Source: Aplysia californica | Lineage: Eukaryota | DNA: 64,000 nucleotides | Reading direction: 5' to 3' | NCBI RefSeq assembly: GCF_000002075.1 | Contig: NW_004798045.1 | Span: forward strand, 225,534-289,533 | Shown here: positions 1,333 to 55,200 of the stretch, one piece after another | How the letters are laid out: the number at the start of each line of letters is the position of its first letter | Position numbering within the stretch: position 1 is the first letter of the stretch | The notes under the pieces: model-generated | Told to the model about the DNA's origin: nothing | The model's database searches: none | What the model saw: only the letters and a program-made list of their open reading frames with translations | Program-made: the position numbers and the translations under genes

Positions 1333-1435
1333 AACGCCAACCCTCTCCACATCAATCCAGCACTTGATGCCGTTGTCCTGCAGGAAATCCTTAATCTCAC
1401 GAGGATCACCAAAACCAACAGCTCCATCACTTGCC
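1333..1435 (-). CDS. Exon w52: ASDGAVGFGDPREIKDFLQDNGIKCWIDVERVGV, TIR2 (continues beyond window)
   Basis: LxxxGxxCWID motif; ttgcag / gtaagt. Confidence 0.9.
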
Positions 1436-2767: not shown

Positions 2768-2803
<36 letters not shown>

Positions 2804-29800: not shown

Positions 29801-32800
29801 CCATAGACGGTGAAAGATCTTGTCAGTATATTAGTGTTTTAGCGCCTATAGATGGCCGCTTGCACTGTATGCTTCCCAGGAAGTTGAGATTGTTTCGAAA
29901 CACTCTCTGGTCTCCTGGGGTAATACTATAGATTGTGAAGTGCATAGAGCTTGCTGTTGAGCAGTGATTTGCGCTATACAAAGGCTATCTATTATTATTA
30001 TTATTACTTTACTATTTTCCCACAAATGCGGACACGAAGAAAAAAAAAATGTGAGTCCTCACTTTTAAAAAGATCAGATGGGATTTCTGTCAGCTGGTTG
30101 GAGCTCAGATTCAGGGAGTAGATGAAGTGTGTGTACATGCCAGGTAACTCGTGGAACTTGCTGAGCTCTTTATCAACTTGCCAGGTTGCTTGATGGGTCT
30201 CACACATCATCAACGTCTCATCCATTAAGACTAGTTTGGTTGGTTTTAGACCTTGTGACGGGCCGTGCTGCATCATCAAATCCTGCCATTTCTGAAAGAA
30301 AAAAATACAGATATAAAGTTACCTAGTTAAGTCTTTTAAAAAATTTCATTACAAAGTAGACATCAATAATCACCATTTTTCAATGCCATTACAAAGTTAA
30401 CATCAGTAATCACTTTTTTCCAATGCTATTACAAAGTTAACATCAGTAATCACTATTTTCCAATGCTATTACAAAGTTAACATCTATAATCACTACTATC
30501 CCCAGTTCTTTTCCTGCAAAGAAATAGAAGTAAATAGTCTGGATTACAAGGTAATAATTATCACAATTGTAAATGTTTTACATTTCCATTATTAGCCTAA
30601 TATTTAGATGACTTACACAGAAGGCCACTTTGGGTCTACCTATTGGGGCCAACCCAAGTGGAGAAGGATGCAACAGCAGACGGGACAGAGATACTAAATT
30701 GAAAACCTATTTACGTGGGAATAAAACTCAAATTTCTTAGTGAAAAGGCAAAGCACCTCACAAATATGCCTCCGATTTCAGTGGAATACAAAGTGCAAGT
30801 AAAAAGACACACCTAGAATTAACAGTTCACATTCAAGGCAAGTCCATACTGGAGTCATCAGTTCATCCGTTCACACAGAAAACAGTACGTAACGGACACA
30901 CATAAAAGACAGCATAGATACCTTTGCTATTGTGTCGTTTATGAGAGTGGAAACATCAAAAGCTTTTCCCAAGCTGAGAAACAATGCATCTCTAAATTGC
31001 TGAATGATCTTCATCAGTCCTGATTCAACCTGGAATTGAACAATTCAAAAGGTTACACTGTGCCGTGGTCCCGGGGCTGTAGATGTTGTATACAAAAGTG
31101 GAATGACAAAATCAAAGAAAACCTACTTTTATGTAAAAAATCTGGGGAAAAAAATAAAGTGCAGCCCTTAGTTAAAAAAATTCTTGACCTTGTGTGTAAC
31201 ATCCAGGCTCACAGTAATGATTACAGTGGGATCACAATTATGTCTCTCAGGAACAGGAAACAGTCCACTGTGATCACTGAGATGTGTGAGGATGTGGGGG
31301 TTATCATCAGTGCTTTTCACCCCTGGCAGGGTATAGGCCACATACAAGCTCCTGTGAGGGTTATACTTTACTTTAATATCCTTCATCTGTTAAATGTACA
31401 CAATACAGATAATTTTGTCAACAATTCTCCTGTGCATATCATAAACATTCTTAATTTCCAATTAAACTTCACTGTTGTGGGAGGGGGGGTGGGCAACATT
31501 CCCATCACCAGCATGCTGTACAAAGAGTAATTAATTGTAAACCCTTTGAACCCTTGCCACTGGTACACAGGTGGCGCATAAAATTGCCCATATATCTAGC
31601 CTCGGGTACAGCGGTGAAAACAGCGTTTAATACACAAGATGTTATTGATTATTTTGAAGATCTTTCTGAATTAGATGCTGGTAATGGCAAGGACTGCCCT
31701 AAGTGAGATATGGAATGTCATTCTGACGATCTTATAAATCTCTGATATCAAAGAGTCTACATTACAAGAGGGTTCACTCCTCTCTTTGAGCCAATTAAAA
31801 AAGTGTCCTCAAAATTCGGTGGCGCCCTCTTCGTAAATGCGCACCCTTTTGGGACAGAGTTACCTCACTTGTGTGAAAAAAATCAAAGTGAAACTAACAA
31901 GTTTTTGAATAAATAAGAACTCAAATTTCGGAAGAATGCTTTTTTAAAAATAGTTACGCTGACAAAAAACCTCTTCCGGAGGAGGAGGCGACTGTTTCCT
32001 TCGCTTAATTTGACCTTAGAATGAGAGGTGAGAGGTCATTAAAATAAAAAAACCTAAAGCTCCGCACTGAACGAACCCGAACAGCTGATGAACACCAGTC
32101 GATCTGCGCACGCAAGGGTGTGCTATTCCTATTCTTCTTCTGGATAAATGAAAGAGAGCTTCAAAACAAAGACTGCAGCGCCATCAGAAGCAATGAGCGG
32201 ACTTCCACGGACACTTTCTTGGCTGAGTGGACCATCTTGTTATGTACTATGTTGGTGATATTGCTCAGGAGCTCAGGCAAAGGAGCATGGCAGCCTCAGG
32301 ACGTCAGGGCTCAAAGGGTTAATGCTTTGTGTCCCAATAGACACAATTTACATCATTTAAGAGGCGGGCTGCTTTAACTTTGCCTGCAAGGGCCAACTCA
32401 GGCTGAGAGGGATACAGCATCCCAGAAACAGACAAAATTACTTAATAAAACATCTCCCCGTACATGTTGAACCATAACACCACAGAATGCCCATTATCTA
32501 TGAGTGGGCAACAAGAGTTTTTTGTTAGCTTAGTAAGAGTTTTACGGTGGTTGCAACTGCATAAGGTCAGATGAGCATGCGAAACACAAGTTGGTTGCAT
32601 TCATGACAGTTCTTAGCACAGCTTGATTTTGGTCAATGATCAGATTAAAATGTTTAAAAATTCATGGTAAAAATCTCAACATTGAAATGACAACTTCAAT
32701 AATATTAAAATAATCTTATTTAAATTGTAGAGTGCTTATTCACAGGTAGCAGAGATGTGATGAACACAGGAGGGTTGTCATAGGTAGAAGGCAATATGGA

Positions 32801-34542
32801 GAAAAAATTGTACCTAGCACTGGTTTCTCGAACCTTCCTTTAGTTTAGTTTTCGTAAGAGTTTTACGGCACTTGGAACAAAATAAGTTCATATAGAAGTG
32901 CCGAAGAAGAGATGTGTTACAAGTGAGTAACATACACAAAAAAATGGAGGAGATATAAGGACGATAGATGTTTGATAGTAAAGAAGGAGAAAACCACACC
33001 AGAGCAGCAACCAACCACCCATCAACCTTCCTTTGAGCTGAATCTTAATGTAATGTTGTCAAATACTTGTTAAATACCTTCTGTTAACAATAACATTTCT
33101 GCCTTTTATGGCTTTTGCAACACAACTAGGTCATACAAGTGTCGAAGATTAAAGGTGTTGCAAGAGATTAACAAACACCAAAAAAGGAGGAGGAGAGATC
33201 AGGATGATACATATGTTTGATAGCAAAAAGGAGCAAACCACACTAGAGCATCCGCCAACCATCCACATAAGATGTCCAACACACTTCTATCATGACTCAC
33301 CTCCTGAACACTCATTTTATCAGCACCAGCAATCCCTTGAGTCAATGCTTTCATTTCCGGCAAAGGCTCCTGTCACAGACATAAAAAAAAGAAGTTCACT
33401 CATCCTCATTTAAAATATCCTCATATATCAGAAGATCTGTGTCCATTGAATGTATTTATTGCATAAGTTGATGAGTTCGCTAAATGGAATTGAGACTAAA
33501 ACAAAGTCAGAACAATAAAAGTCCTATTTCGCATAAAAGCAGATAAGGACCAAAAAAACACAAAAAAACACACACGCACAAAAAAAGCAGCAGAAAGAGC
33601 AGATCACAAGGAATCACTGGATTTGCCAGACATACACACAACTGAGCCACTGAGACAGGACAACAACGAAGGAAGGACAAAAAGAAAAACTTGGCACTTG
33701 ACTTTTATCTTACTTATGTGAGCATGATTTTTAGGAACACAATGAAGGACTGACTACTCTGAAAACAATTTCCTTCAAATACATCAAAGGCTAAGACAGC
33801 CATGTTTGTGCAGGTGTCTTTCCCTGGTCTGTGATAATTACTCTGAAATTGAAGTACTAACAGAAATATTGTTAAGCTAAAAATTTTTTCTAGACTTTCA
33901 ATAAAGAGGTTTCGCATGACATGCAAAAAGCATTCCGCATCAACTATATTTTAAACCACAAGTGACCAAAATCAGAACCAACATGTTGAAATCGCAGCAG
34001 TATCAGCATCCAGGCCCACAGAAGACAGACTCCTGGTTCAGAAGTGTCCTCTGAGGGTTCAAACTCAAACCCTTCATTGTCCAGCATGTGCAGGGAGTGG
34101 AAGCACTCTACCACAGCCTGCTCCCGGCTGGATGGCATAGAAGACATGACAAGGCTGACGTCAGCTGAGGAGTGGGGCAAACAAACAGGAAAACAAGATA
34201 AGGCACATCTCCCATATAGTTCCCTAAATACTTAGTACAAAGGTTTTTTTTGTTTTAAAACAAGATGATAATCATCATCATCATCATCATCATCTTCATT
34301 GTACAAAGCAGATATTAAGACAATTAAGACCTGGAAGTATTTCCAAAAAATATTTTATCCAAAGTTCAACGTTTCGCCCTCAACAGGCTTCCTCAGGAAC
34401 ATTCACAAAATAAATGACAAGAATCTAGATCTACACATGCTAGAAAAACTAAAGTGCGTACATACATGTCACAACACTTAAAGGAGCAGTGAGTACAAAT
34501 CGCAAGGGCCAGAGAGAAGGGAACACTAAGGCCAGAAGTGGT

Positions 34543-34576
<34 letters not shown>

Positions 34577-37212
34577 AAGAAACAGGTGTGTGGAGGTAAG
34601 GAATATAATAACATCATAATCATAATGAGGGCGTGACATCTGCTAGATTGCCTGAGTGCGCGTATGTTACATGTACATGTTCCTGATGAAGCCCTTTACA
34701 GGGCGAAACATTGAACTTATATTAAATTTGAAAAACATACTAAGTCTCAAACCCTTTTTTGATTCCCTGCTACCTACAATAATCATAATGAGGATGATGA
34801 TGATGATGATGATGATGATAACGATATTGATAATGATGATAATGATGATAATAATGATAATAATGTTAATGATGACGATAATAAAGATCAATTCTATAGC
34901 ACCCATTCCCTGTAGGCTTTATGTGCTTCACAATATAAAAAAACAAAAACAATTCCAATAGCTAACACTATGACACATTTTATTAAAACTGGTCAATTTA
35001 ACGCACAACCTTTTCATATACACATGCACTTATAATCTGAAAAAAGAACACATACAAGAGATAACAATCACTATGGCCGCTGATCACAATTATCGTTGAA
35101 AGAAGAATCAAACTTGCTAGTCAATTAGGATTTAAATAAATCTAAGATAAAGCACACCTCTCATATACTCTGCAGCATCTTCAAGGGCAAGTACAAAAAA
35201 ATATTTTTTTAAACAAATATGAATCCCATCTCAAGTATGCTATCTTCATCAGTTAGTACAAACAAACCAAAAAACCCCCAAAAAGTAAAGGTAAAACACT
35301 CCTCCCACATAGTACCACTGGCTAGGCCCCCTTTCGATGAAAGGAATGATCGGAGCATTAACATCAACTGAATATCATTGGTCTACTATATTTACACTCT
35401 ACTGGAATGGAGCAATAAATCTTGAGAGAAAAGTGACACATGTGTTTCCAAGTTGCCAAATATATATTAGATGCACAGATTGATTCTCTGTTCCGCTTTC
35501 GTGGTTGTACACTCCAGAATTTCAAAGGTGTGGAATGAGTGCGCACTCATTGTGAACGGAAGCCTCACGTGTTCACAATGGCGTCTACGAAGACGTACTT
35601 TCCCAAGATTAGATCTAAACAAAACTAATGAAAAACTGAAAATTAAACTACAGTGACTTCATACTCCTCAGTAAAACTGTGCCCCCTGTAAATGATTCTG
35701 AATCACCGTTATTTTTTTCAAATTCGAAAGTTAAGTGGTTCGGAAGTTTTAGGAAGGCGAAAGTGACGGACTTTCACAAATATAATATGTATAGATGAAC
35801 AGCTAGTAACAAAAAGTAAAAAAAAAATAAAAACACACTTCCTTTTTGATGTGTGCTGACAAAATAGGTTAATTCTTAGATTTTAGCTCTTTGGACACAG
35901 ATAGAAACAGCAAATGTGTGGGTTGGGTTTGCATAATTTCTTTAATAAAATGATAAAAGACATTTCAGCTTTAAGAAAATGGCTTCAGATTAAAATCAAC
36001 AAATTTGATGCGTCTATTTTCAGCTGACATTTCCATTCGTGGACTACAAGAAGTAACTCATTTTGTCAGCATGCAACACATAATAATTTGGTTCTTTCAA
36101 CAACTAATACAATCAAACAAACAGCAACCCAAAATAGGACACATCCCTCAGACAGTTCTTTCAACACCAAGAACAATCAAACAAAAAAGAAAAAAAGAAA
36201 AGGGAAATCTCTTCTGTTGCGAATTAAAACTCTGGAAGTCTTAGTCTAAGAGAACCAACAACGTTTGCTCCAAGCTGAGTGAATATGACAAACTTTCTGA
36301 ATTTTTACTAGTCTTTGATTAACTCTTTAAACCCCATCAGATTCTGGGAGCGTTCAGCAGTAATAACCCTGTTCCCCATCATACGCTGCCAGTGTCCAAT
36401 ACTAGTGACATCTGTTTCGTTTTATTTAGTGCTAGTTTTTGTTAGTTTTTCGGAACTATTCCCAAACCAAGTTTTTTAGTAATGACTAAGCCTTTGTTTC
36501 CGCCATTTAGAAGTTGGAGGCAAGCTTTTGGGGTTATAATGAGACATAGTGCACAAGGTTTAGATGACAGTAGAAAAAAACTATGGGAAATGGTGGAAAA
36601 AACTCAGGGTTTAAAGAGTTAATCAAGTTCTTTATCATTCTAAAGCAGCAAAAGAAAATGGACTTCAGGCAAAGCAAAATTATGCCTTCACCTCAAAATT
36701 ATCATCATACTTCTCTTCAAGTCAAATCTATAAACACAAACACAACCCACCAGCATCTGTAGTGTGACACTCCTGCAATTCACCATCCCACACTGAAGAC
36801 CCGAGTTTGATTCTCATCTAGGAAAATTTTTTACCAATTATCTCAGTCTTTCTGCTGGGACTTTGTTTCCTTTCAACCTAGGTTGGCCCTGGCAAACACT
36901 TCTTAAATTATCTAAATTGTGTCCATGGGGGTGTAAAACACCTACAATTTTTTATCTTTTTAAAAATACACAATAAAAGATCTCACCTCTGAAGTAGCAA
37001 AGAGGATGAAGTTTGAAGCTTCTTGTGAACACCTCATGGGAACTTTGGACCAAATTGTCCATCGTCAGACTCTCTGGTAGAACCAGGAGGGGCAACACTG
37101 GGAGAAATAAAAAGGAAAAGAAACTAACAGACTGCTTTAGTCATTCTTTTGGGTCAGCCTGGAACGTAACGGCATTTATTTAAAAGGAATATAATATTAA
37201 TAATAAGGATGC

Positions 37213-37245
<33 letters not shown>

Positions 37246-40200
37246 TAATAATAATAAAAATAATAATATGGTAGCCTCTGCCTAAGATATCGGAGTAGGT
37301 ACACAACTGGTAGAATGATCTCCCTTTACTCTAAAATGAACTGGTGTGACCCCTGGGTGGGTCTATGACTTATGGCATTCAAAGAGAGATCAACCTTGAT
37401 GACTAATCACAGTGGCATGACATATGCCATTTTCACTTGTTATCTATGATTATCCAGTTGCTCCTCCCCTTTACCTGTCCAGAATTTATAGATTTTCATC
37501 TCTGATAGAGTTCCCCTGCCTTTGTCATTAGATACCATTGTGTTGTGACCAGACCAATTAAAATTCAGTTCATCTCGTAAATTCAAGGATAGGGACAATT
37601 GCTGAAATGGTCAAGGAAGAGTTCACAGTTTGATGTGATCCCGCCTGCAGAGAACTTGTAAGCCCTTACCACCCAGCGTGTGATGTAAGTTTAGGTGGAG
37701 AGCTCAGATAAGAATGTGATGTTTGGGGGGGGAAAAAACATCAGCGAATTCACACCGAGGTGTGATCCCATTAGAGGCAAACATTGTACTGTTTCATTGA
37801 GAATATTTACAAATGAAATGTGATCACATTCACAAAGTGGATGATCTGTGACACCATGGGCAGTTCAATAATCTCAAATTTTCTCTCTTGGTTGATCTTT
37901 TATGTCCGTCCGGGTTTTTGTTCCGTAAATTACGATCTGAAATGAGGGATCTGAGCCAAATATAGATATGTTTACCAAATTGTAGAGGAAAAAAATCTTT
38001 CTCACTTTCACCAGTCAAATTATTTAGCAGAATAAATTTAGCTTAAAAAAAATATCTTAAACCATAAAAATGTATGTTTGCCTTTCTTTTATTTGATGTA
38101 TCTAGCACATAACATCACAAGTGAGCTATAGCTCTTCAAAGAAATGAATCGTGTCAGTCAAAGTTCCCAGTGTATTTTTCATAGCACACAGGGGGCAGGG
38201 GCGGAGGGTTATGATAGCAGTGCCTAATGAATTTATGAAGTGCCTAAAAATGTGAAACTATACAGTCCCTAAAAGGCTCTAAGTGCTGTGCAGCGTGAAA
38301 TCATTATTCAATAAAACTGAAAGAAAAACAGAAAATGTACATTGAGAGACCATTTATCAGAGCACACATGCACACACACACGCATGCACACACAAAAGAA
38401 TGCACGCACAGAAGCACGCACCCATGCACACATAGACTCACTCACATTCTTCCATACCAAAACTACTAGTAGAGTACAGAGTTGAACAAATGTTCCGTAA
38501 GACTTTCCACAAATTGTTAGAAGTTATATCCCATTCCATAAAATATTTCTGTTTCATAATACACCTTTCTTAAACCTAGCTGGTCTGATAAAGACAGCAT
38601 TTCTGGTGCTTGCAGAGCTTCACACCTAAAAGCTTCAAATCGTGTCTCATGTTGAGCTACAAATTACATAGGACACATCTCAGCAGTCACTATCTCAAAA
38701 CCCACAGTTATCAATGTGGTTTCTGGAATCATAATCATAATAATATGATATTATCATAAACAATCTAAACACAAATACAAATTTGAAATGGGTTAGATAA
38801 CAAAGAAACAAAGAAAAGCGAAGAGTTTTTATTACCACCAAGGGTTTAAAAAACAAAGGTTGCTTGTATTCTAAATTGTAGCCTGACTTTCTGATGGAAA
38901 GCTCAGTACCTTGCTGATAGCACCCGAGGAATACATACCTCATCTGTGATAGAAATGGAACACTCCCTTTTGCATTGAATATTCATGACAGATATGAAAA
39001 ACCTCTTTACAAGTGTTATATAGAGAAAAAAATAACAGAATCTCTTGAATGCATTGCTCACCTGAGAAGTTCCATTTTCCCTCAGTGTAGAGAATGCTCT
39101 CAACTTTGTCTCGAAGTTGAACTTGCCTGGCATATAGAACTGAAATGTGGAATGAAGACAACAAACACAAGTGTTCTAGTTCAGATGGTACAAAAGAGCA
39201 TAGGTGTATCAACATCTAGAGTAGAAAAGAAATGTCAACAAATCATGAGTACAGTTGTTATAAGGATAGAACTGCCGTAAGCTGACAAAACGCCTTTTTT
39301 CATTTTGGTGTCAAATTTTCTTTATTTACTAAATCGAAAGCCTGATCAGTTCTCCTACTTGTGTGAAAAAATCAAACTGAAACTGTGAATAGTTTTTGAA
39401 TAAATTAAAATTCTAATTTTGGAAGAACTCTATTTTTAATTGGTTACACTGACAAAAAAACTCTTTTTCTCAACACTTTTGTGAACAAAAAAAGGCGTTT
39501 CGTAAGCTTACGGCACAGAACTGAAGACAGGCAAACATTCTTTGCAAAACTTGGGGAGGCAATTCATAAGCCGGAATGAAAGACAGAATTTGCTTACCAA
39601 TTCTAGAAACTTCTAACAATGGCAGGATACAGAATTGAGTCTAAGTAACCCCATTTTCCACAATAGAAAACTAGGAGGCAGGATCTCAGATTCATCATTT
39701 ATGATGATGGTGGTACCGGTAATTAGAAAGACTGAAATTCTTTACCTGAAGGAAAGTGCACAGGGGTACAAGGCATTATCAAGTCATCATGTAGCTTTTT
39801 CAAGGCTTCTGGTCTTTCCTTCTTCATCAGGGCTTGATAACCACAAGGCACTTGGAACTAGGCAGAAAAAACAATAATCTGTGTAAAACACTGACATCTT
39901 TTCATGACAGATATCTAAAAAAAAATCACAATTATTATGCTGTCATTACCAGCTCCTGTTTTCTTTACTCATCCTACAAAAATTAAGCATTTTGTGAACA
40001 AAATGTTTCAAAATGGCCTTTATCTGTGAGCGGACAAGAAACAGTCTAACAGCCACCTGTCCAAGGCAATCACTTATACAAACTACCATTCAACACTTCC
40101 TCCCTTGCATTTGACATTGTCCAAGACATCCACCTGTCAAAGACAACCACCTTCTCCTCAATCGCGGTTAGCCATCTTGGACAATATCAACTGTCCTCTA

Positions 40201-43200
40201 CTTCAATAGACACCATTTTTGACATTTAGGACAAAATCCGTTTTACCTATGCAAACAGTTATAATAACTAAAATGCTGTTGTCATGCATACTCATCTTTA
40301 TGCCTTATTCTAACAACAACAGCAGTTAAACTGCATTCAAAACACTGCGTCGTGTTGTCTCTCAGTACAAAAGTTTTGAGCTGCAGAAATAGTGCTGTTG
40401 GTAAGTTCAGAAACATGAATCATTAAAAAAAAGACGACTGTTTTGAAAAATATTATTTTTCAATGTTCAAAGAGATAAACTTCATTCAAACGCCAAGCTT
40501 GGCTCAATGCCCATTTGGTTTTATCCCATTCCTCTTTTTCTTTCTTTACTCTTATCCAATAAAAGCCACTCTTTCTCTTAATTTCCAAAGAATACACTTG
40601 GATTTTGCTTCATTTTTCTTGCCGCAGCAAACCCCAACACTACATTTCTAAATATACCCGTGTTAAGACAACTAACCTTTTTCACTCACTTGTCATTTAC
40701 AAGATATGATCATTTTACTTTCCTTTTGTATACTTACTTTAAAGAAAGACCATAAAGGTACTGGAGTCTTCTGTCCTTGATCTTTACCTGGTACAGAATG
40801 TTGAAAAAAAAGAAGAAACATATTCAAAATTCATTTACATTTCAAGAAATGTAGACATATCCTCTTTTTACTGCAATAAGCAGGCGATGGAACACTGTGT
40901 AATAGTGCACACAGGCTAGTGAACAAGAAAGCGATGTTCTGTTTACCTGTAATATTTAGCGAGTGAAACTTTGAACAAGACAATCGTGTAAATTTAAATG
41001 TAAAAGTAAGGAACAGCAATTATAATCATAAACTACAACCAATAAACAAGTGGAGGCACTTAAAGAGAAGTAGATCAGCAGCTGGTGACTGTCACGACTA
41101 AGAGGGGTGCAAAACAGTAAAAGCAACATTCAAGTGAATGTCACAAAAAAAATAAATAAATTTTAAGACAGTTGCAAAATCTCACCAGAAAGTTCTGCTG
41201 AAGACAAAGCAGTTCCCAAAGCTTCACTTGTCCCGTCAGGCATGAGTTGATCACTGGAGTAGATGAAATGTCGTTCCTCTCCATCAACATCTGGGGCAAC
41301 ATAGAAACAAAACCTCGACTAACTGCTCTTCCATGATTTTCACAACCATAAAGCCCAAACAAGATCTATCCTAATTTTCTATTCAAATCTGAGAGTATCA
41401 AAATTCACTCAGGGATCAGAGGAAAGGAAATAGTTTTTGAAACCTCCAGATTTTGTCACATGCCAGTGCAAGAATTGAACTCATTGCCTCCACTGTTTGA
41501 GCCAGCACCATACCACTGTGCTAGGGTTTTGTAACCAGAGGGGCTAAGCGTATGGGTAAGCCACAAGACATAATGATCTCATCTGATGGCCTGCAAAGAG
41601 ATTACTACATGCTTTGCTTCAGGTTTATGCTTCAGACAGTTATCTGAAAACATGAGTCTTTGAGAAAAATGAACAGATAAAAGGAGGAAATGAATTACAG
41701 AAAGCTCTGCCTTATACTAAATGACTCACATACCCCTCTTAAATTACCACCCATCTCCATTCCCTCCTACCCATAGGCATGCATGCACCCTTGCACGCAC
41801 GCACACACGCACGCATGCACACATGCACGCACCCACACACACACACGCACGCATGCACGCACACACAACACACACATACCTACACATACATACATATAAA
41901 CACATACACAAACACACACACAAACACACACATTCTTTAATCAAAAAGATGAACCGGGATAACAAATATGAAATCAAATTTGAGTTTCTAACAAAATAAT
42001 TAAAATTGTATAGAATTTCTGGTTTTTGAAGCTTTTGGAGTCTTTGACGAACAAAATTAAATTCCATGAGAACAGGAGCAAATGCAAGCATAGAACTGAG
42101 ATTTTGATGAAATGAAGCTATAAAGCTTTACATTTTGACCAAAAAAGGGACCAAATTTCGTGCTTTGCTCTCTAGATAAAAAAAAAGAGATGGAATCAGG
42201 AAAAGTCCATGAGAAGCATGTTTATACCATAAGCTTGCCATCAGATACATTGTCCATAGCATCAGCTTGCCATCAGGTAGGCCTATATTGTACTTAGGCT
42301 CGAGAGTGAGTCTGATGTTTGCACAGCTCTTTCTCACTTTAATCAAACCTTTGCGCAAGTCAGACATAAGAGAGAAGCCCGCGAGCTGTGCACATCCACA
42401 AGTGAGAGTGGACCTTTTAAATATTCAAAATGTAACACACTCTTCTCAGCCAGAATTGGTCTCATCAGCCATAGCAGAAGCCACAAGTCACTGAAACCTT
42501 TAATTCTTGTCATTCTATTCTATTGCAGAAATATGTATTGCCCATTGTCAGACTTTGATAGACGAGCTGCTATCATTACTATAATCAGCTCACCAAGAAC
42601 AAGGTTTCCATTAGGCTGTCTCTCTTTAATGACTGCTCTGTGTGCACCTGATCCTTCCAGGTTCACTTCCAGGGTTCTCCCAGGCTCAAAGTCACTGTGT
42701 CCCAAACTCCAGGAGCTCTGGAGTATCAAACAAGGTTAAAGAAAAGAGCTTATTAGGAAGAAATACACACTGAAAGTGAAAAAAGATGACATTGTCAGTA
42801 TCATTCTTGATTCTGCAATCACACTCATCATTTTCTATAGGTTTCAAGATACACATGATATTATTCAAATTAAAATTAAGACATAAAGGGAGCATCTTAC
42901 AAAACAGTTTGGTATTTTTTTTAGTTTCCGTAGTTCCTTTTTAGTTTTTAATTGAAAAATCGCAAGTGCCCAAGTCATGCATTGGATTTGGGAGATTTTT
43001 TTCCTATAATTTTCTCAAAACTTGAAAAACTGGCAGGCATTTGATGAATGACGCTGACAATATGAAAAAAGGAAAATTGAGAAATGAGATCCTTCCTTCC
43101 CTCCCTCCCTCTCTCTCTCTTCACTGAGAATTTAAGATTTTTCAGTAAAATTGCTTTTTTCATTGTATGTTAATTTTCATGCAATAATTTCAACCCGAGA

Positions 43201-46200
43201 GGAAACCTCAACTTCCTTAATTTTAATAATTTGATGCTAAAAAAAAATTAAGGTTTCATCTCCAGCTTTTGACACTCATGCAAAAAATACATTTTTATAG
43301 TACTACTTTTGCTTAACAGACCCAAAACTTACCTTAATTCCTGGGATATTGATGATGTAAATGCCTGCTTTCTCAGACTTCATATCTATCTTCATGTGCC
43401 ACCCATCCACTTCCTCAGTGTGAACCAGAAGACCTCTCAGAATAATGTTGACCCTCACTCTCTCCCCAAGCTGTTAAAATGAAAGTCATCACAAGTCAAC
43501 ATTAATGAGCATGTTTCCTTTTGTTCATCTCTTTATTACGCTTCAACAACTTTTTTCCCGACTCTGTTAATATCTCCAACATTGCATAACACGGGGGGGG
43601 GGGGGGGGGGGGAGGACAGACAGTAGTACATTCAGTTGGTATTATGCCGGACAACTGGGAAGTACTCCTTGGTTGCAAGAGCCCAACAAGAGATAATTTT
43701 GTTTTTGTTTTAACAGTTTTATGGCACTTGCAACACAATAAGGTTATATACATGCTAAAGATTAATGGGGTTACAAGAGAGAAACAAACACAAAAAAAAG
43801 GAGTGATAAGGATGATAGATGTTTGATAGGAAAGAAGGAACAAACCACACCAGAGCACCCACTAATAAGAGAGAGTAGACAAAGAAAAACAAAAGCAAAG
43901 AAAGAGGTAAAAAATAAGACTCACATCCATTAAATCTGTTTCCTGTCATTGCTTTTCGAAACACAATGAATGCTGTATGTGATAAGTATGATTTGTGTCT
44001 ACACAAGTTAAGATAAGACAAAAAAAAAGAAAAGAAAAAGAATAGAAATGATGAACTAACACAGTATCATTTTAAAATTGACAAACGAGCCATACTCCTA
44101 AGAATAACTTTATCGACAAAAAACGGTCAGCTAGTTTGAGAGGTCAACAGTGACTGAAAACGACACATAGAAATACAGACAGAGGACACAGCTTAGGTGT
44201 CTGACACACTGAATGACTGACACTCTCAAATGCCATGAAAGACGATACAGCAAATGACCGTAGTTGTTACATTCTTCGTTTAATCTGGTGGTGTGGTGCT
44301 GGAGACTCCGTTCATCTTTGTGTGCCAGGCTGTGTTAATCAGCGAAGAGTAATTCATTTAGGGCGTCAAGCTCTGTGTTGGCCTCTTTTGTACTTCTATC
44401 CATATATATGATAAATAGTAGTGGTGATAGGCCACAACCTTGTCTTACTCCGTATGTTATTTTGAACCTTTCTGTGAGTCCCTCTGACTTTGTTACTGTA
44501 ATTATGCTGTTCTGGTAAATGGTACAGATGTTATCTAGAAGTTGGCCTCTTACAGTGTAGTTTTCGAGTTCTTTCCACTGCTTGAATGAACAGAGATGCA
44601 ACAACAAGAATATTACTACTCACAGCACATTTATAGGGTTGAATTATTCTGTTATTTCAAGATGCGGCTACACTTTTGCTAACCTTGACTGGTTCCAGCT
44701 GGATTGTGATAGAGTTTGCATCTCTGCTCTTCCAGTTTTCATCAGTGTGAGTTTTTCCGTCCTGGTCGACAAAAGCCCCTGCCATGCCTTTGTACTCCAG
44801 TTGCTTCCCTGAGCCACTATTCGTGGTTGGATATGCATGGACAGTAGATTGAAGCATTAATGCCATTAAAGAGAAACTTGAAACATTAAATGTTGTGGTA
44901 AGAAAATCTACACCGAGACCTCTAGCCATGGACGATAAATGCAATAAGATAAGAGNNNNNNNNNNNNNNNNNNNNNNNNNNNNNNNNNNNNNNNNNNNNN
45001 NNNNNNNNNNNNNNNNNNNNNNNNNNNNNNNNNNNNNNNNNNNNNNNNNNNNNNNNNNNNNNNNNNNNNNNNNNNNNNNNNNNNNNNNNNNNNNNNNNNN
45101 NNNNNNNNNNNNNNNNNNNNNNNNNNNNNNNNNNNNNNNNNNNNNNNNNNNNNNNNNNNNNNNNNNNNNNNNNNNNNNNNNNNNNNNNNNNNNNNNNNNN
45201 NNNNNNNNNNNNNNNNNNNNNNNNNNNNNNNNNNNNNNNNNNNNNNNNNNNNNNNNNNNNNNNNNNNNNNNNNNNNNNNNNNNNNNNNNNNNNNNNNNNN
45301 NNNNNNNNNNNNNNNNNNNNNNNNNNNNNNNNNNNNNNNNNNNNNNNNNNNNNNNNAATTGAGAGAAAGAGATTGAAAGAGAAGGAAAGATGGGCAGAAA
45401 GAGAAGCACAAGCAGCCTGGAAAGAAAATCTAAAAAAGAAGGATGTTGAGAAGGAGATGAAGAGAAAATAAGTGGGGTGCTGTACCATAAGGACAGAGAG
45501 CTCATAAAAATTCAGTGAAAAATAATTATCTGCCATAATGATACACATAGAGGTTACATGCAAGCAGAGGTACCCACATCCCCCATGAAAGAAAAAAACA
45601 TTTATAGGTTCTAAACATTAATTTACAAAAACAAAATCCATGTTCATTTACAAAGTCATTTTCAGCAATGTTTTTCCTCACAGCTCCTAAACTATTAAAA
45701 GCAGGGGAAAAAATACAGATGCTGCTTTTGATTTAATCTTTATCATCCATAACCAACACTGTGTCTCACACTCTTTCATCGTTCACATCACACTCTTCTC
45801 CAACATTCCTCCTGCAAAATGGAAAGGCAAAAATACAACTAAAAAGAAGAGCTCAATTCTGTCTTCAATTCAATTAAAATATGCTGCAATTTTGGTGTTG
45901 TTTTGGTACTTTTTTCTTTCTCAGTTTTTCACAATGAAGGTATTAGAGGCAAAATGTTTGCAGAAACTTACAAAGACATGCGGCAGAAGAAAGTGGCACC
46001 CCGTAGAATGGTAATCCGAGTCTCGTTCCAGTAGATTGGATCCATTGGTTTGAGGAACTGCATACAATGTCCTTTTTTGTAGTAAAAAACGCTGCCTGCT
46101 GTGTTGCGTTTGATCCTGTCATCATCTTTTAACTCACCGTCTCGGATTAGTTGAATCTTGAAGGAAGTGTTTTTCAGATAGCCCGGCTGAAGAGACTTAG

Positions 46201-49200
46201 CAATTTTCTGAAAAATGATCAACCAATATGACTGTTCATTGCAACACATACATGAATTTTCCTTCAAAAGGTAGGTCTGATACAGACATCAACTACTATG
46301 GTTTGTCACTTATTGCTCCACTCAGTTGTTCTTTAAAAAACGTATATCAGCCTGGTCTTTTCCCGTGAACCAATTGTTTAAGTTCTCTGAGTACGTTATC
46401 ATATGTAGGCCTATGTATCAACAATAAAGTATTTTCAAATCTAGGTGTTGGTAAAGTAAGATGAGATGTAATTAACATCAACAAAATAATCCAAGCTAAA
46501 CAGGTTGCAAAAATTAGGACAGATAGAGTAGAGCTAAACTTTTATAAGACCACATTTGCTTGAAATAAAGAGAAGCACATGGGCAAATCAATAGTCAATA
46601 TTGTCGGTATCGTAGGACATCCACTTAAGTCTGATTGATATTTTTTACAAAGACAAAAAGCTAGACTTTGTTGAGTTTTGCCTATCACGTATCATGAAAA
46701 GCAAGAAAATTGTATACCTTGACCATGTCATTTAAATGCATTTTGGTGATGTTGAAAGGTACATCTTTGATGAACCTTTGGGAGGGTGTAAACATTGAAA
46801 ATTCTCGAAATATTAGCCTCAGTGAATTGCTTGTGACAGCGACAATATCTTTGTCTATGTTATCACCACTTGTTTTGATGTCAACAGCTTGTCAAACAAT
46901 GTATTGTCTTCATGTTTGTTCCATAATCTTCCATAAAATTCTTCCTATTTTATTCATACACTTTCGCTTTATAAGTTAAAAGAATAAAAAAATACTTGTG
47001 TTTCAGAGAAACTTGATATCCCTGATTTTTAATCGTATTCTTTTTGTCAGTTTATTATGTTCAGCTAATCTTGTATTCAAAGGATAACCACAGATTGTTT
47101 ACCTTAGATCTGTTCTCTAAAAAGAATAACAAGAAACCATTTCTTAATGGCTGTGTCCCATTTCTGACAGGGGCCAAAATTGATTTAAAAAAAACAAATA
47201 CGTGAAAACATTGTCAGTATATTGTTTCTTTTACCGCAAACTGGCAGCAACATTCCAAACACATGAGGCAATGAAGGCAGGGAGTGTCCAGCAAGGAGCC
47301 ACAATAGAAGCATCTGCAAGTTATAAGACAAAATGCATCTTTCTCAAACACAGTATCCAGCCAGTGTGATAAAACCATAGAGGTCTTTTAAAGAATTAAA
47401 CATTCTGTTTAGAATACATCAACCGCACAGTTAAGACTGCCATACGTCCCTTTTCAAGATGGTGTGTGGCTGAGTTTTATATTAAGCAGTCGATATATAT
47501 ATATATATATGTAGAATGTCAATCATCCCATGCTTTAATCTGTACAAGACCAGAAAACAAAAAAACTTGTATATATTCAAATGTTTCATCAACAAAAGTA
47601 TTATTTATGTAACTCTTTAAAAAAAACCAAGAAACTATACTGCAGATTCGTAAAAAAAATATGATAGTAGGCCTAAATGAACAACACAGATGAAAAGGCC
47701 TGTTCAGCATCATTTTATGGCAGTAAATTTCTTTCATCATCCCTGGACAGTAAACTTGCTGCTAGTCACTCTATGCTACTACCTTTCTGCTGGGTCCATT
47801 GGACGATGTCTTTCTTTCTTGATTCTGTTTTCCACCACTTTGGAAGCTGCCATGTGGTATGAGTAGTTGTGGTAGGGTATAATGGGTCCCTCTGAAGAGA
47901 GCAAAGAGAAAAAAATGGAGGAAAAAAACAACATTTCTGTAACTTTGAAACCAAAGTCTAAATATGGTAGGGGGGATTAAAATATTTTGGGCAACAAACT
48001 CTCTGAGCCCTCTATTTAATTTGTTCTCCAAAATATGTCATCACATACAAGAGTAGCTCATTAAAGGTTCAGCCCGAAGCCGTTATTTCCCTAGCCTATC
48101 TCCTTTGTATTTATCAGCAAATATGAGACCTCAGAATGTGGAAGTCTTAAGCTTCACAAACCAAAAGTAAGTTCGTATATTAGGCAGAGCCAGTACTACA
48201 TCTCGTGAAGACATGCCAACTCAAAACATGTTAAACAACTGCACAACTGAATTGTCATTATCATAAACTAGGTCTTGTAGTAACACTTAAGGCCACACTC
48301 TACTTCTCGGCACCAAAATCTACAATTAAGAGATTTTTACTTATTTTTTCTCATTTTCTCAAAGTATTCCTTTCAAGGATTGAAAATAATCAGTTTTGGG
48401 AATCACTACCAGTTACATAATCATGGAAATGGCAAATTAGAGTAGAATCGAGCTATCTGTAGGACCATTTTCAAAAAAACCTGTAAATATCTATAATTTT
48501 ATATCTTTTAGAAGATGTGCATATTAGCGAATGACAAAAATAGTCAAAATAGGAAAGTAAAAAAATTATTTTAAATACATTTTTTCAAAAATTTAAAAAA
48601 AAGCTAGCGTCATTTCATTTGGAATTGCATGGAGCACCTGCCCTCTAAATTTCAAGTTTTGATCTTGAGAGATTTTTGAGTTTTTAGCTTTTAAAGCCAA
48701 GAAATTAACATTTTGAGGAAAGGAGCAAAAACATTTCAAAATTGCTTTAAAGCTTTGTATTGGCTCACAATGTTTCAAACTTTCAGGAGCTATCTCTTTG
48801 AAATAGAGCTTTGGGAGTACTTCCATCCGATTTAGCACATAATTTTCAAGAGAAGTTTCTTAAAACCAAAAAAACATTGTCTGGGCCCAAACTGGATCCC
48901 CAAAACCCCGTGTGTGGCCTTAAAGGAGCAAACATTCCATACAAATAAAAGCGAGGGTAGAGCAACATTTTTGTTTGAATTATTGAGAAATCCAACAATA
49001 TCTATGACGGACAGAAACGAACCACAGAATAAAACTTTAATTGAAGGACACATTTTAATAAAAGCAAAATGATAAAGTTTTAAACAGTTAACACAGAACT
49101 TGAAGTTAAAAGTAAACATCATTTCGCATTCATCAGTCCATATCACACAATAGTTCTTAAAAAAAAAAATGAACAAACAAAAAACCCAGAACAGAACAGA

Positions 49201-52200
49201 ACAGAACACGACTTCAAATCACCTCCGTGCTCTTCTGTAAGATCGCACAAAAATGAGCAATTGATTCGCTTGTGCTTTTTGCACCCTCTGTGCTTGCTGG
49301 CTAAGGAAATATAGTATGGAAGATGCCAAGTCTTTTCAGCCAGCATTCCTTCTGTTTCAAATTCCCCACATTCTGGGCAAGGCAGGGTCCGCTAGCGGAA
49401 AAAACAACAACCAATAGTTATGATCTGAACGATATTACTATAGTCCCCCCAAAAAAGTGGGTACACATATCCATATCGCCTCTACCATCTTATTTTTTAT
49501 TCCTGCCCACTCGACACCCCTTTCTCCTTTATTTCATTCTATTACAATANNNNNNNNNNNNNNNNNNNNNNNNNNNNNNNNNNNNNNNNNNNNNNNNNNN
49601 NNNNNNNNNNNNNNNNNNNNNNNNNNNNNNNNNNNNNNNNNNNNNNNNNNNNNNNNNNNNNNNNNNNNNNNNNNNNNNNNNNNNNNNNNNNNNNNNNNNN
49701 NNNNNNNNNNNNNNNNNNNNNNNNNNNNNNNNNNNNNNNNNNTTCATAGATAATAATGATCATAATAATTAAAAGAAAGAGAAAGATTTTTGGCACTTAC
49801 AGCAGCATAAATCTTTGTTTTTTGACAAGCGTAGTCAACAACAGCCATGACTTGTTTCAAGCCAGAGAACATCACGTGCCGTACTTCTTGAGTCGCTTTA
49901 TGCCGATCCTCCTCTGTGGAGCGGAACCTTTTGTCCATTCGCAAGTCCACCACTCGAGCAGACAGAAACAGGACAGGGACCCCTGTGAACACGATCAGAC
50001 AAATTATGTCCCTTGAACACAGCTCATGATAAGATAATTATGTCCCTTGAACACAGCTCATGATCAGACAATTATGTCCCTTAAACACAGCTCACGATCA
50101 GACAATTATGTCCCTTGAACATGGCTCACACTTTGACGATTACATCTTTGATCAAAGCTCGCAATTAGACAGTTATGTTACAGAACAGATCACAATTAGA
50201 CAGTCATGTCACAGAACAAAATCAACCATTTGTGGGTCATGAAGACAGTGCATAATCAGAAACTTTGTCTCATGAACATAGCACACATTCAGACATCACT
50301 GATAATATCAGCACCCACTTCTGATTCCGCGTCCTCATTTGTGGGTTTTTTAAATACAGAATTTAACACAATTTTGGAGAGCTGTTAGTGTGACCTCTAA
50401 CATGTTAAGGTTTTAAAATATTTTTTAAACATACAGTAAGTTTCAAAAAAGCAAATATCATTTTTTCTAATATGGGTACTTTGCCTTGAGATACAGCTAT
50501 CTATTTCAAACAGTAATAAGAGTCTGAAAGGGTAAATCTATCATACTCACTGTCCAATCTTCCCCCCACATATCTGTGCAATGATGCCATGATATCCACA
50601 GGGCCCTGTCGCAAGAAAAAGCCTGTCTTCCAGACAAGCAGAGGCTGGAAAATCTTAAGAAGGGTCCTAAAGGAGAACAAGGAATACAATCATAAAACCA
50701 TTCCAATGGGTTTTAGTCTGAGTAATGATAATAATAATAATTGCATTTATACAGCACATATCCATGCTCTAGAGAATGCTCTATGTGCTTTACAACTATT
50801 ATTACCCCAGCAGACCCCCTGAGAGCACTCAGAAACATTCTCGGCTTCCGCGGAAGCATACAGTGCAAGCTGCGGATTTCACGCGCTCAAACACTATCAA
50901 ACTGATAAGATCGTTCACTGTCTATAGCCGAGAACCCATTTCCACCTGGGTGAAGTGAGTAGAGAGAAGTACATTGATATGACAACTAGCATGAAGTACT
51001 GGAAAAGAGGAAGACTGACAGGCAGAAACAAGAGAAGGAAATAAAGAAGTAAGGCATATCAGGAGCATCCTCAAACCATCCACAGCATGAGTTTCCATGT
51101 TAAGACGATTTATAGTTAATAATAATAATAATAATAATAGATAGCATTTGTATAGTGCGAATACATGCTCAACAGCAAGCTCTATGCACTTCACAATCTA
51201 TACTATTACCCCAGATGACCAGAGAGCATTCTGAAACAACCTCAACTTCCTGGGAAGCATACAGTGCAAGCAGCCATTTATTGGCGCTAAACACTAACAT
51301 AGTGCAAAGATCTTCTGCTGTCTTTGGCCAGGTACCCATTCCCACCTGGGGTACTTTACCTTTACAAAGTTTTCAAGGATATATTTCTCTATCAATTTAC
51401 CTGAGCAGCTTGGGATAAAAACTAGGAGGCACTGCTGGCAGGAAGTTGTAACATCTGTTATTTTGGAGCACTTTGCTCTTAGGACGAGGTTCAGGCCACA
51501 TAGATTTCTGGAGGTGAGGTGGAAGGGGGGGGGGGGAGACAAACAAGAATTAGAAATAAACTTTATTTACCACTGAGGAACTAAAATAGTATGTAGAAAC
51601 AGCTGGTAGTGTAGACAGGAAACAATCTACATTTGCCACTTTGTCCCCATCACTTTTGTATACAATACAATAAAACTATTTGCATTCGTCAAACTTTTTA
51701 ATGTCCAACCAGATACAGGACAAGCCATTTCATGTATGGAGTACATGGTGTACCCCCCCCCCCCCTCCCTTCTTCCCCGGGCAAAAGTTAGTGACACATT
51801 TATTGAAAGAAGAGCAAGAAAGTTTGGCATGTTCCTGAACTATGAGTAGCAGATCTTGTATTCAGAACCTTACTCAAATTATGTACACAATCTAGCCAGA
51901 CTGCCATGCACAAAAGCTATTTCAATAAATGGACATTGTTCATTGTTAATTACAAAAATCTGTTTCCAAGCTAAAAAATTTATGTTCTGAAGTTCTCCAA
52001 TTAAAACTCCACAAATAGAAATTTTCTTCAAATTTTATTATGTTGGCAAAACTTCTCAGATGATTGCTTTCATACAGCTGTAAGCAGATTAGAAAATATG
52101 ACTCACTGAACTCTCCTCCTCCTCCTTCTCCCTCCCCTCCTCCTCCTCCTCCTCCTCCTTCTTCTTCTTCCTTCTTCTTCTTCTTCTTCATCCTTTTCTT

Positions 52201-55200
52201 CTCTTTTGATTGTAAAGGTGCCGAGGATTACAAGTACACCCCTTCAGGTGAATGCAATTTATATGCCACAATCTCATTAGTAAAGGAGTGACATTTTTTC
52301 TCCACAGTTACCCTGTCTTCTGCCCAACTCTCTTTCATTTCACCAAGGGTGTGATTGAGAAAAAAAATAAACCAAAGAAAATCCATAATGTGGAGTCCGC
52401 CTTTCAGATGTTCAATTCATTAAAACAACAATAACTGAAAGTCTTCTTCTGCACTCATTGTCTAGGTCTCACGCATAGGTAAGTTTAGGTATCCAAAACT
52501 TATATAAGTTAATATGATTTCCAAGTTCAGAGACGTGCCCATTTATCCTTCCAATCAATAGGCTCCCTTATATTTGACACTCAGGCAGTCACATTGATCT
52601 TTAGGAGGGAAGTCTTTATCTTTCTTTTTTTTTTAACAAATCAGAAAGTTTCAGTTTTTGAATAGGAATTAATAACAATATAGACTTTTACTGATATTGC
52701 TCACCCGAGTGGGCTAGTTTCTTTTTCAAATTTCAGTTTCCAAGATATTTTTCACATACCATACATTCACACAGCCGATCTCCTTACTCAAGAAGAATAA
52801 GTGCTAGATTTTTACCTATACTAAGACCAAATATATGAAAAATTGGACAAAACAAAACGAAAAAAAAAAAATGCATCACAATATCTACCGACACTGCATA
52901 CATAAATCCAGGGTCCAATCAAGAGCTTTAGCACCAGGCCTACGAGCCTCTTGCAAAACTTATTTTAACAAATCAAAAAGTAGTTTAGCCCTTCTTACCA
53001 GAATTTCATGATAATCTGGAACATCTTCCATGCGCACATATATGTATTTCTCTTTGTCCACACGAGCCCCAAGTGTTTTGGTTGGCACTGGCAGAAGGAG
53101 ACCTTGGCGCTTGAGCAGTCCCAGAACATGAGCAGCCTGCAAGAGAAGATAACTGGTATAAGCCAGATAGCTCAAATACTTGCACGTTCAGAGAGGTAAG
53201 TGATATATACCCTAGCATATGATCAGGATAAGGTGCACCATACGATGTATTCATGTTACTCAATATAAAAATCTAGACAATATCTTTGCAAAAACGAATG
53301 CCCATTAGGTACATATCAAGATCTTACAGAGGAAGTTAGAGTGTTTTGTTGTTGTTGCTGTTGTTTTGTTGTTGTTGCTGTTGTTTTGTAATTTTGTAGG
53401 AGGGGGGGTCTGAGCGCTGTGAAGTATAGGACTCCTTTATAAGATACACTCGTGGAAAGGTGTTGGGGGGGGGGGGGGGGGTGAAGGGAAGGGGTTTTGC
53501 AAAGAAATATTACAGTATGACGAAAGTCTTGGCCACAATGTTATTTTGAGTTTTGACGTACTTCAACACAACAATATGAGTTTTGACGTATTTCAACGCA
53601 ACAATATGTTATTTTGAGTTTTGACGTATTTTAACATAACATTATGTTATTTTGAGTTTTGACGTATTTCAACACAACAATATGTTATTTTGAGTTTTGA
53701 CGTACTTCAACACAACAATATGTTATTTTGAGTTTTGACATACTTCAACACAACAATATGACTCAAAAAAGACAATCTCACATCTCCTGGTGCCTTTTGT
53801 CCAGCCAGGACTTTTCCTGCAGAACTGGCTGTCCAGAATGGAACTTCTTTACCAAGAAAGCCTAGGTAGATTCTCTCAGGGGGAGTCTCGGTGATCAGTT
53901 TTGAGCAGATCTCTTCATAGGCACGCATGTTGGTAGCACACAGGCTCACTTTTAGATTTGGAGTATATAAACATTCACCCTGTGAAAAGATATTAGGAGA
54001 AAATTTCAGCATTGAGTGTATGAAAAAATTTTGATTAACTTATACGAGACAAAGCATGGCAAGCAAATGGGTATGCAGTCAAAGCCTTAGCCAAAGTGCT
54101 ACAGAAACGCTCTACACCGTCTATACTGAAAAAAAAAAGCATGCACTCAATAAAAATAGCTTTGAGAACCAGTAACCCTACTAGGCTGATACTAATGGGC
54201 TTATTAAAAGACCCACTATATTTAAACCTTGTGGATGGTGCAAGCAAATATGGGTCAATTTTTAGGGTCAATTGCAACTCAGAAGAATTTTCGCTGGAAA
54301 AGGAAATTTCAGATTCTGATTGGAACACATACAGAGCTATATGATTAGATAACTTCTCCACCCGGAGTGCTATGGCAAAGAGCCTAAACATGACACCACA
54401 GGTATTGATAGGTTTTGATGAACTGAAAAACCATTCAACTACAAATAACTTGTACTACAAATTGATCTCAAGTGATTTTTGCTCAGATTATAGCTTGTTC
54501 ACTTTCCTCTGACCACTGTTCAAATAAGATAAAATAAAATCGCTCTGTTTAATCTTTCCAGATCTTTGCATATGGTTCTAAAAGTTGAATGACTAACAGA
54601 ATTTAAAAGCTCATTCCTAGAGATCACTGCAAACTAAGATTCCGACACATTTTCTTTAAAGTAAGCCTAAAGTGGGTAAAAAAATAATTGGGGATTCACA
54701 GCATACACCTAAAACATTTAAAAGTTGACATATTTTCCTCAACACCACACTTTGACATTTGCCTAAGGAAGGAGATTCAAGAAACGGGGTGACTAATTTC
54801 CGAGACTAATGGGGAGCACAAGGATATGTCCAGACAGTCAGGGGATAAAATCTACAAGCTTATACTGAAATATGGGGGCAGGGTGGTGTCGCTGTCTCAA
54901 AATGAACAATTTGTACGCAAGGTTACTGTAAGTCATTTATTACAGTGATGCTGTGTATGCATCCAAAGAGCGGGTTTTAATATAGGGCACAAAGAGAAAC
55001 ACTTTTTCATTACTGGATCAAGATTTTAAAAAAAAAATTTGTTTCGTTGCTGGCCTGCAGAAGTGCCATGCCAAATTTCGTCAGCGTAGGTGAATTAATA
55101 AATGAAATTGAACTTTTTGTTTAATGCTGTCAGACGAAAATGATCAAACTATAGCAGTGGGTATTACACAGAAAATCACGCAGCAACAAATTCCTTAAAG

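What the first reader, a model, noticed from the sequence alone, without database searches (positions are those of the whole stretch)
30063..37097. Bacterial/TRN1-type Roco tail runs into the second Roco's first LRR inside one exon
Seen: LPLLVLP...FKLHPLCYF (w25), HSLHMLDNEGFEF (w26) and GLKPTKLVLMDETLMMCETH (w29). About 25 residues later in the same exon, with no stop, comes SLNLSSNQLTEIP (LRR). From memory, cyanobacterial LRR-Roc-COR proteins and plant TORNADO1 end in a similar series (P.LF.L.P; L.L.CE; H...GYE; GL.RV...W.C..H). Inference: module 1 was once a complete Roco of that type, and exon w29 preserves the fusion seam. The seam is the strongest evidence against two neighbouring genes.
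Basis: partly seen in the sequence, partly recalled or inferred. Interest (0 to 1): 0.7.

Follow-up and report, generated by a model that had tools for sequence, protein, structure and literature searches.

The report
Ancient double Roco GTPase gene seam
One open reading frame of this animal gene runs from a Roco GTPase module that has lost its nucleotide-binding motifs, through a likely zinc-binding end domain probably related to bacterial Roco tails, into a second intact LRRK2-type module, so two whole Roco proteins were likely joined early in animal evolution.

Summary
All five motifs are real. CxxH and the LRR motif share one exon, 25 codons apart. A 49-exon, stop-free chain joins both modules, and four animals (limpet, abalone, Lingula, Trichoplax) have single 2,847-3,150 aa orthologue models. 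Module 1 is a degenerate Roc-COR with no P-loop.

Tail 1 fails HMMER and HHalign against bacterial tails (0.3 bits; probability under 1%). It does pass a whole-domain profile alignment (z 4-6) that puts the same invariant Cys, His, Cys, His in register, and its predicted secondary structure has the same order. Homology is likely, not proven. TORNADO1 was untestable and no cyanobacterial tail was found.

The shared exon is not a fossil of the fusion: two paralogues in this genome have an intron there. RNA reads and the COR tree were inconclusive. Best reading: an ancient, likely membrane-anchored pseudo-Roco plus Roco-TIR signalling protein, formed by duplication or fusion.

The parts
59776..59990 (-). 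First exon of Roc1 (pseudo-GTPase); P-loop position reads RDQKFQE, G3 position reads FNILETQ
49223..59299 (-). Eleven further exons: rest of Roc1, COR-A/COR-B of module 1, start of Cys-rich segment
   Evidence: in-phase chain; HHalign to Roc-COR2 92%, E 5e-7
43333..47891 (-). Five exons: Cys-rich segment and a beta-rich domain (SPRY/NHR-like by eye, recalled, no Pfam hit)
   Evidence: boundaries of 46207-45972 and 44921-44684 are the least certain
40738..42717 (-). Three exons: degenerate MBT-like repeat (intact MBT in Trichoplax, Haliotis and Elysia orthologues)
39746..39857 (-). Exon w24: first helix of tail 1
36987..37097 (-). Exon w25: two strands of tail 1; invariant Cys at 36999-36997 (putative Zn ligand 1)
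33983..34164 (-). Exon w26: conserved His at 34090-34088 (putative ligand 2), Gly, hydrophobic helix
33301..33369 (-). Exon w27 (69 nt, phase 0-0)
30922..31029 (-). Exon w28 (108 nt, phase 0-0): helix
30063..30291 (-). Exon w29, the seam: last helix and hairpin of tail 1, CxxH at 30204-30193 (putative ligands 3 and 4), irregular capping repeat, first canonical LRR from 30114
21705..28995 (-). Module 2 LRRs with EF-hand insert (five exons)
   Evidence: Pfam
16447..20480 (-). Roc2, intact GTPase motifs (GLGGAGKT, WDFAGQ, GTHLD)
7873..15305 (-). COR-A/COR-B of module 2 and zinc-ribbon-like CxxC
1333..6615 (-). TIR domain 1 and start of TIR domain 2. Tail 2 and the CaaX end lie beyond the window in L009 (6609-944; stop at about L009 36)

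Best explanation
This is the junction inside one large gene in which a degenerate Roco module (LRR, Roc without a P-loop, COR, accessory domains and a likely zinc-binding tail) runs in frame into an intact LRR-EF-Roc-COR-TIR-TIR module that ends in a clear copy of the bacterial tail and a CaaX motif. Shown: the open chain, the loss of G motifs in Roc1, and tail 2's homology to bacterial tails. Inferred, likely: tail 1 is an eroded copy of the same domain. It keeps four metal ligands and its last helix now caps module 2's first LRR. The join predates the placozoan-bilaterian split and arose by tandem duplication or fusion of two tail-bearing Rocos. Inferred, untested: the protein would be prenylated and membrane-bound, and Roc2 would be the GTP switch gating the two TIR domains in immune or stress signalling. 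Module 1 would be a catalytically dead regulator, most simply a built-in COR dimer partner that holds Roc2 off until the LRRs engage a ligand.
For: One chain: 49 of 49 exons AG/GT, 2,237 aa, 0 stops, one continuous BLAST alignment to Patella P0077 (376-2619, 41%). Full-length models in 4 species. None of 17 shorter models checked breaks at the seam. Roc1-COR1 vs Roc2-COR2: 92%, E 5e-7; vs bacterial Roc-COR: 89%, E 2e-6; 0 of 15 shuffles reach either. No GxxxxGK[ST] in window Roc1; 3 of 4 full-length orthologues have only the Roc2 P-loop, and Patella has one extra off-register match. Tail 2 vs bacterial tails: 8 of 8 sequences beat all 200 shuffles; HHalign 96-99%. Tail 1 ligands conserved in 10, 9, 10 and 10 of 10 orthologues; the bacterial last ligand is His in 41 and Cys in 15 of 60. 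Unforced semi-global profile alignment puts all four in register at z 5.4, against a best of 3.3 in 30 real control windows. With untrimmed flanks z is 4.1-6.2 and 0 of 30 shuffles reach it. Same predicted order of helices and strands. CaaX in the window's gene and in 10 of 18 orthologue models.
Against: Tail 1 vs the bacterial HMM: 0.3 bits, 15 of 200 shuffles as high, and 0 of 9 tail-1 sequences beat all shuffles. HHalign probability 0.2-1.0%, E 0.05-0.36. The semi-global score is my own uncalibrated measure: its raw value (84) was exceeded by one control window (88, n=36), and against tail 2 only two of four ligands aligned. Both AlphaFold models are moderate (pLDDT 67 and 64) and could not be superposed. 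Zinc binding is inferred from conservation only. Three bivalve models begin at the start of tail 1, so some lineages may make a shorter protein. The tree cannot separate duplication from fusion (p-AU 0.23).
Confidence: 0.7

Rival explanations
1. One gene, but the region before the LRRs is an unrelated helical domain and CxxH is just a Cys/His N-cap of the LRR; the resemblance to Roco tails is coincidence.
For: No significant HMMER or HHalign match. In the model the LRR fold starts at residues 263-268, right after CxxH, and some capped ectodomains align from residue 261 at Z 5.2-5.7.
Against: The two upstream ligands are as conserved as CxxH. The bacterial profile lands on exactly this 220-column span in a 418-column region and ends about 6 columns after the His. 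It lies downstream of COR1, as tail 2 lies downstream of COR2.
Confidence: 0.2
2. Module 1 came from a separate, bacterial- or TORNADO1-like lineage (for example by transfer) and fused to an animal Roco-TIR gene, rather than arising by duplication. This is a variant of the origin only.
For: Roc-COR1 scores about equally against bacterial and module-2 profiles (57.5 vs 60.4). Tail 1 aligns better to bacterial tails than to tail 2 (z 5.4 vs 3.0). One tree joins R1 to a bacterial long branch (88/74).
Against: That join is between long branches and is unstarred. Without two long outliers, R1+R2 are one side of a branch at weak support 79. AU does not reject R1+R2 (p 0.23). Module 2 has the tail too, so no foreign donor is needed.
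Confidence: 0.3
3. Two neighbouring genes, or a second promoter that makes module 2 (with or without tail 1) on its own.
For: Patella vulgata, Trichoplax adhaerens and one Lingula locus are annotated in two pieces, and three bivalve models start at tail 1. No junction reads were seen here (inconclusive).
Against: Those breaks fall at different places (P0077 about 1170-1216, P0080 478-507, P0082 1434-1451), never at the seam (P0077 1560), and near-identical sequences are annotated whole. The window chain is open throughout.
Confidence: 0.07

Closest known systems
Aplysia LRR-ROC-COR-TIR 'putative TLRs' LOC101848126 (MBT) and LOC101845043 (EF-hand), PMC9334734 (passages seen)
   Same: LRR, ROC, COR and TIR with MBT or EF-hand; likely the same family (inferred from architecture, sequences not compared).
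   Different: The passages seen name one ROCO unit per protein; no upstream dead Roc-COR, tail or CaaX is mentioned.
Bacterial LRR-Roc-COR (AP-GTPase) proteins with this C-terminal tail: P0001, L021-L024 (Chthoniobacter, Gemmataceae, Planctomycetota, Phycisphaerae); class described in PMC8195603 and PMC7159879 (passages)
   Same: LRR-Roc-COR followed by a tail with Cys...His...Cys-x2-His/Cys; clear for tail 2, probable for tail 1.
   Different: Single module with an intact P-loop and no TIR pair, MBT or CaaX; the tail ends the protein.
Conserved post-COR C-terminal domain of Ectocarpus ROCOs, PMC3341825 (passages, section 13)
   Same: A possible new domain after COR, shared with ROCOs of other species.
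   Different: Its alignment (supplementary Fig. 1B) could not be read, so identity with this tail is untested.
Chlorobium tepidum Roco and LRRK2 dimer mechanism, PMC6337361 and PMC4104024 (passages)
   Same: COR-mediated pairing of Roc-COR units gives the model for module 1 as a partner.
   Different: Those pair between two chains and both Roc domains bind nucleotide; no kinase here.
Plant TORNADO1
   Same: LRR-ROC-COR (PMC4104024, section 5).

Membership tests
Roco family (module 2) | Roc GTPase with G1-G5 motifs followed by COR | tested here: met
   Pfam Roc, COR-A and COR-B on exons; motifs intact
Roco family (module 1) | Roc-COR homology | tested here: met
   HHalign 92% and 89%, 0 of 15 shuffles; Pfam finds none on the single exons tried
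Roco family (module 1) | Nucleotide-binding motifs (GxxxxGK[ST], DxxG) | tested here: not met
   Absent in the window's Roc1 and at the aligned place in 4 of 4 orthologues: pseudo-Roc
Bacterial-type Roco tail (tail 1) | Significant HMM or HHalign match | tested here: not met
   0.3 bits; probability 0.2-0.4%
Bacterial-type Roco tail (tail 1) | Invariant Cys...His...Cys-x2-His/Cys in register | tested here: met
Bacterial-type Roco tail (tail 1) | Same fold | tested here: inconclusive
   Same order of predicted elements; models could not be superposed; no shared PDB hit
Bacterial-type Roco tail (tail 2) | Significant profile match | tested here: met
   HHalign 96-99%, E 2e-9 to 2e-17
TORNADO1 | Similarity of C-terminal region | not testable with these tools
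   No TRN1 sequence returned by any search
Cyanobacterial Roco tail | A cyanobacterial Roco with this tail | tested here: inconclusive
   The one examined (Calothrix plasmid) ends differently; plasmid tblastn found none; cyanobacterial chromosomes were not searched by profile
LRRK1/LRRK2, DAPK1 | Kinase domain | tested here: not met
   No kinase Pfam in 4 of 4 full-length orthologues

The most novel reading that the evidence does not exclude
An overlooked animal family, from placozoans to molluscs, that carries a Roco 'dimer' on one chain: a dead Roc-COR pairs with and regulates a live Roc-COR that fires twin TIR domains at a membrane. Each half ends in an unnamed, structurally unsolved Cys/His zinc domain inherited from bacterial Rocos. 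It would be a natural asymmetric model for the debated monomer-dimer cycle of LRRK2-type GTPases.
Probability: 0.3. Interest if true: 0.75.

Novelty: new variant of a known kind. Interest (0 to 1): 0.52.

Why it matters
How dimerisation controls Roco GTPases is still debated (PMC6337361, passages). A conserved single-chain pseudo-Roco plus Roco pair would let the two partners be mutated separately. The tail is a post-COR domain with no Pfam hit and no clear solved-structure match (best Z 4.5), shared by bacteria and animals and probably zinc-binding. Pfam scans see only the second module, so the first is easily missed in invertebrate immune-gene surveys. I found no paper on a tandem Roc-COR gene in searches (open-access library only).

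Tried and rejected
RNA: no indexed holder is on record as RNA. Three raw polyA runs and one contig set laid on 24000-41700 gave repeat-dominated signal and depth of about 1 or less in most exon-bearing bins. None of the 15 joints listed was a splice junction of this gene, and 16 more were not shown. This is no evidence either way.

Complex prediction of Roc-COR1 with Roc-COR2 was not available. ESM Atlas gave no usable hit for tail 1 or tail 2. Fold searches: the tail-1 model matched only through its LRR end; the bacterial tail had best Z 4.5 and no Foldseek hit at E 0.001 in the viral library; the PDB sequence search gave one chance hit at E 0.22. HHalign global mode on tail 1 gave nonsense end alignments. 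A profile search of 301 genomes in G002's phylum found the tail in 2. The P0022 search for longer proteins found none among 69 candidates. ORF 52227-51949 was rejected as an exon because the chain closes without it. An early guess of an echinoderm host was dropped: Roc-COR2 groups with Patella (100/97) and paralogue C323 is closest to the abalone/Elysia type, so a gastropod is likely. Earlier scan findings: none on this gene; the 8 listed concern other Roco architectures and were not used.
Full report
Observation. The window is animal DNA (contig C775 of a 927 Mb genome) carrying a minus-strand, many-exon gene. All five motifs lie where stated, and CETH and SLNLSSNQL share ORF 30318-30007 with 25 codons between them. 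Pfam on single exons gives LRR, EF-hand, Roc, COR-A, COR-B and TIR for the downstream half and nothing for the upstream half (37 ORFs; 13 more upstream ORFs).

One gene. I chained exons by splice sites and phase, guided by orthologues. There are 49 exons from 59990 to 1333, all AG/GT, giving 2,237 aa with no stop, and they align in one piece with Patella caerulea P0077 376-2619 at 41% (partial chains). The gene appears to begin upstream of the window with a proline-rich exon and LRR exons (not chained) and ends downstream in ...CALM (one TIR exon and the exon joins near the end were not resolved). Cluster listing returned whole models: P0077 (3,067 aa), Trichoplax H2 P0080 (3,019), Lingula P0082 (3,150) and Haliotis asinina P0084 (2,847). 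Of 17 shorter models checked, none breaks at the seam. Split annotations break at three different places and three bivalve models start at the beginning of tail 1. These are gene models, not proteins seen. RNA reads were uninformative.

Module 1. An alignment of five Roc1-COR1 sequences matches Roc2-COR2 at 92%, E 5e-7, and bacterial Roc-COR at 89%, E 2e-6; 0 of 15 column shuffles reach either. The P-loop and DxxG are lost in the window and at the aligned place in all four orthologues, so it is a pseudo-GTPase by sequence. After COR come a Cys-rich segment, a beta-rich domain (SPRY/NHR-like by eye, recalled) and an MBT repeat, intact in Trichoplax, Haliotis and Elysia and eroded here.

The bacterial tail. 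From P0001 (LRR-Roc-COR) I collected 4 genome and 60 metagenome loci. I used 56 of the 64, dropping 8 short matches; 42 of 57 ORFs showed Roc-COR, and many of the others are short or cut by contig ends or frameshifts. After removing near-duplicates and one frameshifted row, 37 tails remained; a more diverse set of 17 added P0009, P0037 and P0005. Named hosts are verrucomicrobial and planctomycete. The one cyanobacterial Roco examined ends differently, and TORNADO1 was unavailable.

Tail 2. The same gene ends, beyond the window (L009 6609-944), in a clear copy. All 8 animal sequences score 10.9-33 bits and beat all 200 shuffles, and HHalign gives 96-99%.

Tail 1, the finding itself. Against: 0.3 bits with 15 of 200 shuffles as high, none of 9 sequences significant; HHalign 0.2-0.4% to bacterial tails and at most 1.0% (E 0.054, 1 of 60 shuffles) to tail 2. 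For: four of the seven columns conserved in at least 9 of 10 orthologues are Cys, His, Cys, His. The bacterial alignments hold Cys, His and Cys invariant, and the fourth position is His in 41 and Cys in 15 of 60, the exchange expected of a metal ligand (established knowledge). A semi-global profile alignment of my own, with nothing forced, pairs all four with the bacterial ones under three gap settings, and also pairs FTRSFKLHPLCYF with FFKKTYILTPYCEC. Its z is 5.4-5.9, against at most 3.3 in 30 real control windows; the raw score was exceeded by one of 36 controls. With MBT and LRR flanks left on, it picks the same span at z 4.1-6.2, 0 of 30 shuffles. Against tail 2 only the last two ligands pair. 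AlphaFold models (pLDDT 67 and 64; one row of the tail-1 alignment was misplaced) share the order helix, strand, strand with Cys, strand with His, strand, three main helices, strand, strand with CxxH. Module 1 evolves roughly ten times faster than module 2 (branch lengths), so failure of local searches is expected. I put homology at about 75-80%.

The seam. In the model the LRR fold begins at residues 263-268, directly after CxxH, so the 25-residue gap is an irregular first repeat and the join has almost no linker. The spacing is 26-31 residues across orthologues, which suggests the tail now caps the LRR (inference). Two paralogues in this genome, C323 and C105, both show tail 1 and tail 2, with weaker hits to module 1. 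Both have an intron 17-19 codons after the His, in different phases. So the intron-free seam is particular to this paralogue type. It shows continuity today and does not record the fusion.

Origin. R1 and R2 each form a clade across Trichoplax and bilaterians (98/95 and 100/100), so they are not recent sisters. R1+R2 is neither found with support nor rejected (p-AU 0.23; support 79 after removing two long outliers). Sampling lacked LRRK, DAPK and algal or plant Rocos. Because both halves end in the tail, ancient tandem duplication is the simplest account; fusion of two lineages remains open.

How it likely works. A CaaX end is present in this gene and in 10 of 18 orthologue models, the rest appearing truncated, so the protein is likely prenylated. 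Roc2 has all G motifs and sits before two TIR domains. Bacterial counterparts are predicted conflict proteins with variable C-terminal domains (PMC8195603, passages), and Roco units pair through COR (PMC6337361, PMC4104024, passages). I propose that module 1 is a dead, tethered partner that restrains Roc2 and TIR signalling, with the zinc tails as structural clasps.

Literature. PMC9334734 (passages) lists Aplysia LRR-ROC-COR-TIR proteins with MBT or EF-hand, with one ROCO each in the passages seen. PMC3341825 (passages, section 13) notes a conserved post-COR domain; its supplementary Fig. 1B could not be read and may already show this tail. PMC4104024 (passages, section 5 part 1 of 2) notes three other Trichoplax proteins with a Ras-like domain before ROC. 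PMC7159879 and PMC11378527 were seen as passages only. Seven searches found no description of a tandem Roc-COR gene.

Verdict. Observation confirmed; interpretation partly supported; new variant of a known kind; interest 0.52.

Noticed in passing
L009 about 330-36 (contig C775 near 215569) and orthologues P0053, P0055, P0057, P0065, P0066, P0068, P0077, P0080, P0082, P0084: The gene ends in CALM; 10 of 18 orthologue models end in C-x-x-L/M, a CaaX prenylation-type motif kept from Trichoplax to molluscs.
   Followed up: partly
G000 C323 about 31000-105300 (+) and C105 about 1318000-1259300 (-); loci L091-L110: Two more paralogues with the same family layout; C323 has an intact MBT repeat.
   Followed up: partly
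window 63417-63232 and 61684-61476: Two 96%-identical intronic copies of DNA that overlaps a predicted first LRR exon upstream of the window, within a locally duplicated stretch at about 61300-63750.
   Followed up: no
window 54039-54341 (+): 101-codon ORF on the opposite strand inside an intron; weak Pfam TRADD-like_N hit, E 0.094. Unexplained.
   Followed up: no
L017 (G000 C328) and L016 (C1199): Other Roco genes with long exons: a 750-codon LRR-Roc-COR ORF (MFHAS1-like by architecture, recalled) and a 361-codon COR ORF.
   Followed up: no
window 27546-28136, 32865-33455, 35229-35819: Intronic repeats draw most RNA reads (depth up to about 40) from copies elsewhere.
   Followed up: no
L021-L085, P0001, P0005, P0009, P0037: Bacterial LRR-Roc-COR proteins with this tail have no Pfam hit on it, and the last Cys/His position switches between His and Cys: an unnamed domain worth defining.
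   Followed up: partly
window 10859-11248, 15741-16052, 44134-44619: Fragments that look like LINE reverse transcriptase by eye (recalled) in introns.
   Followed up: no
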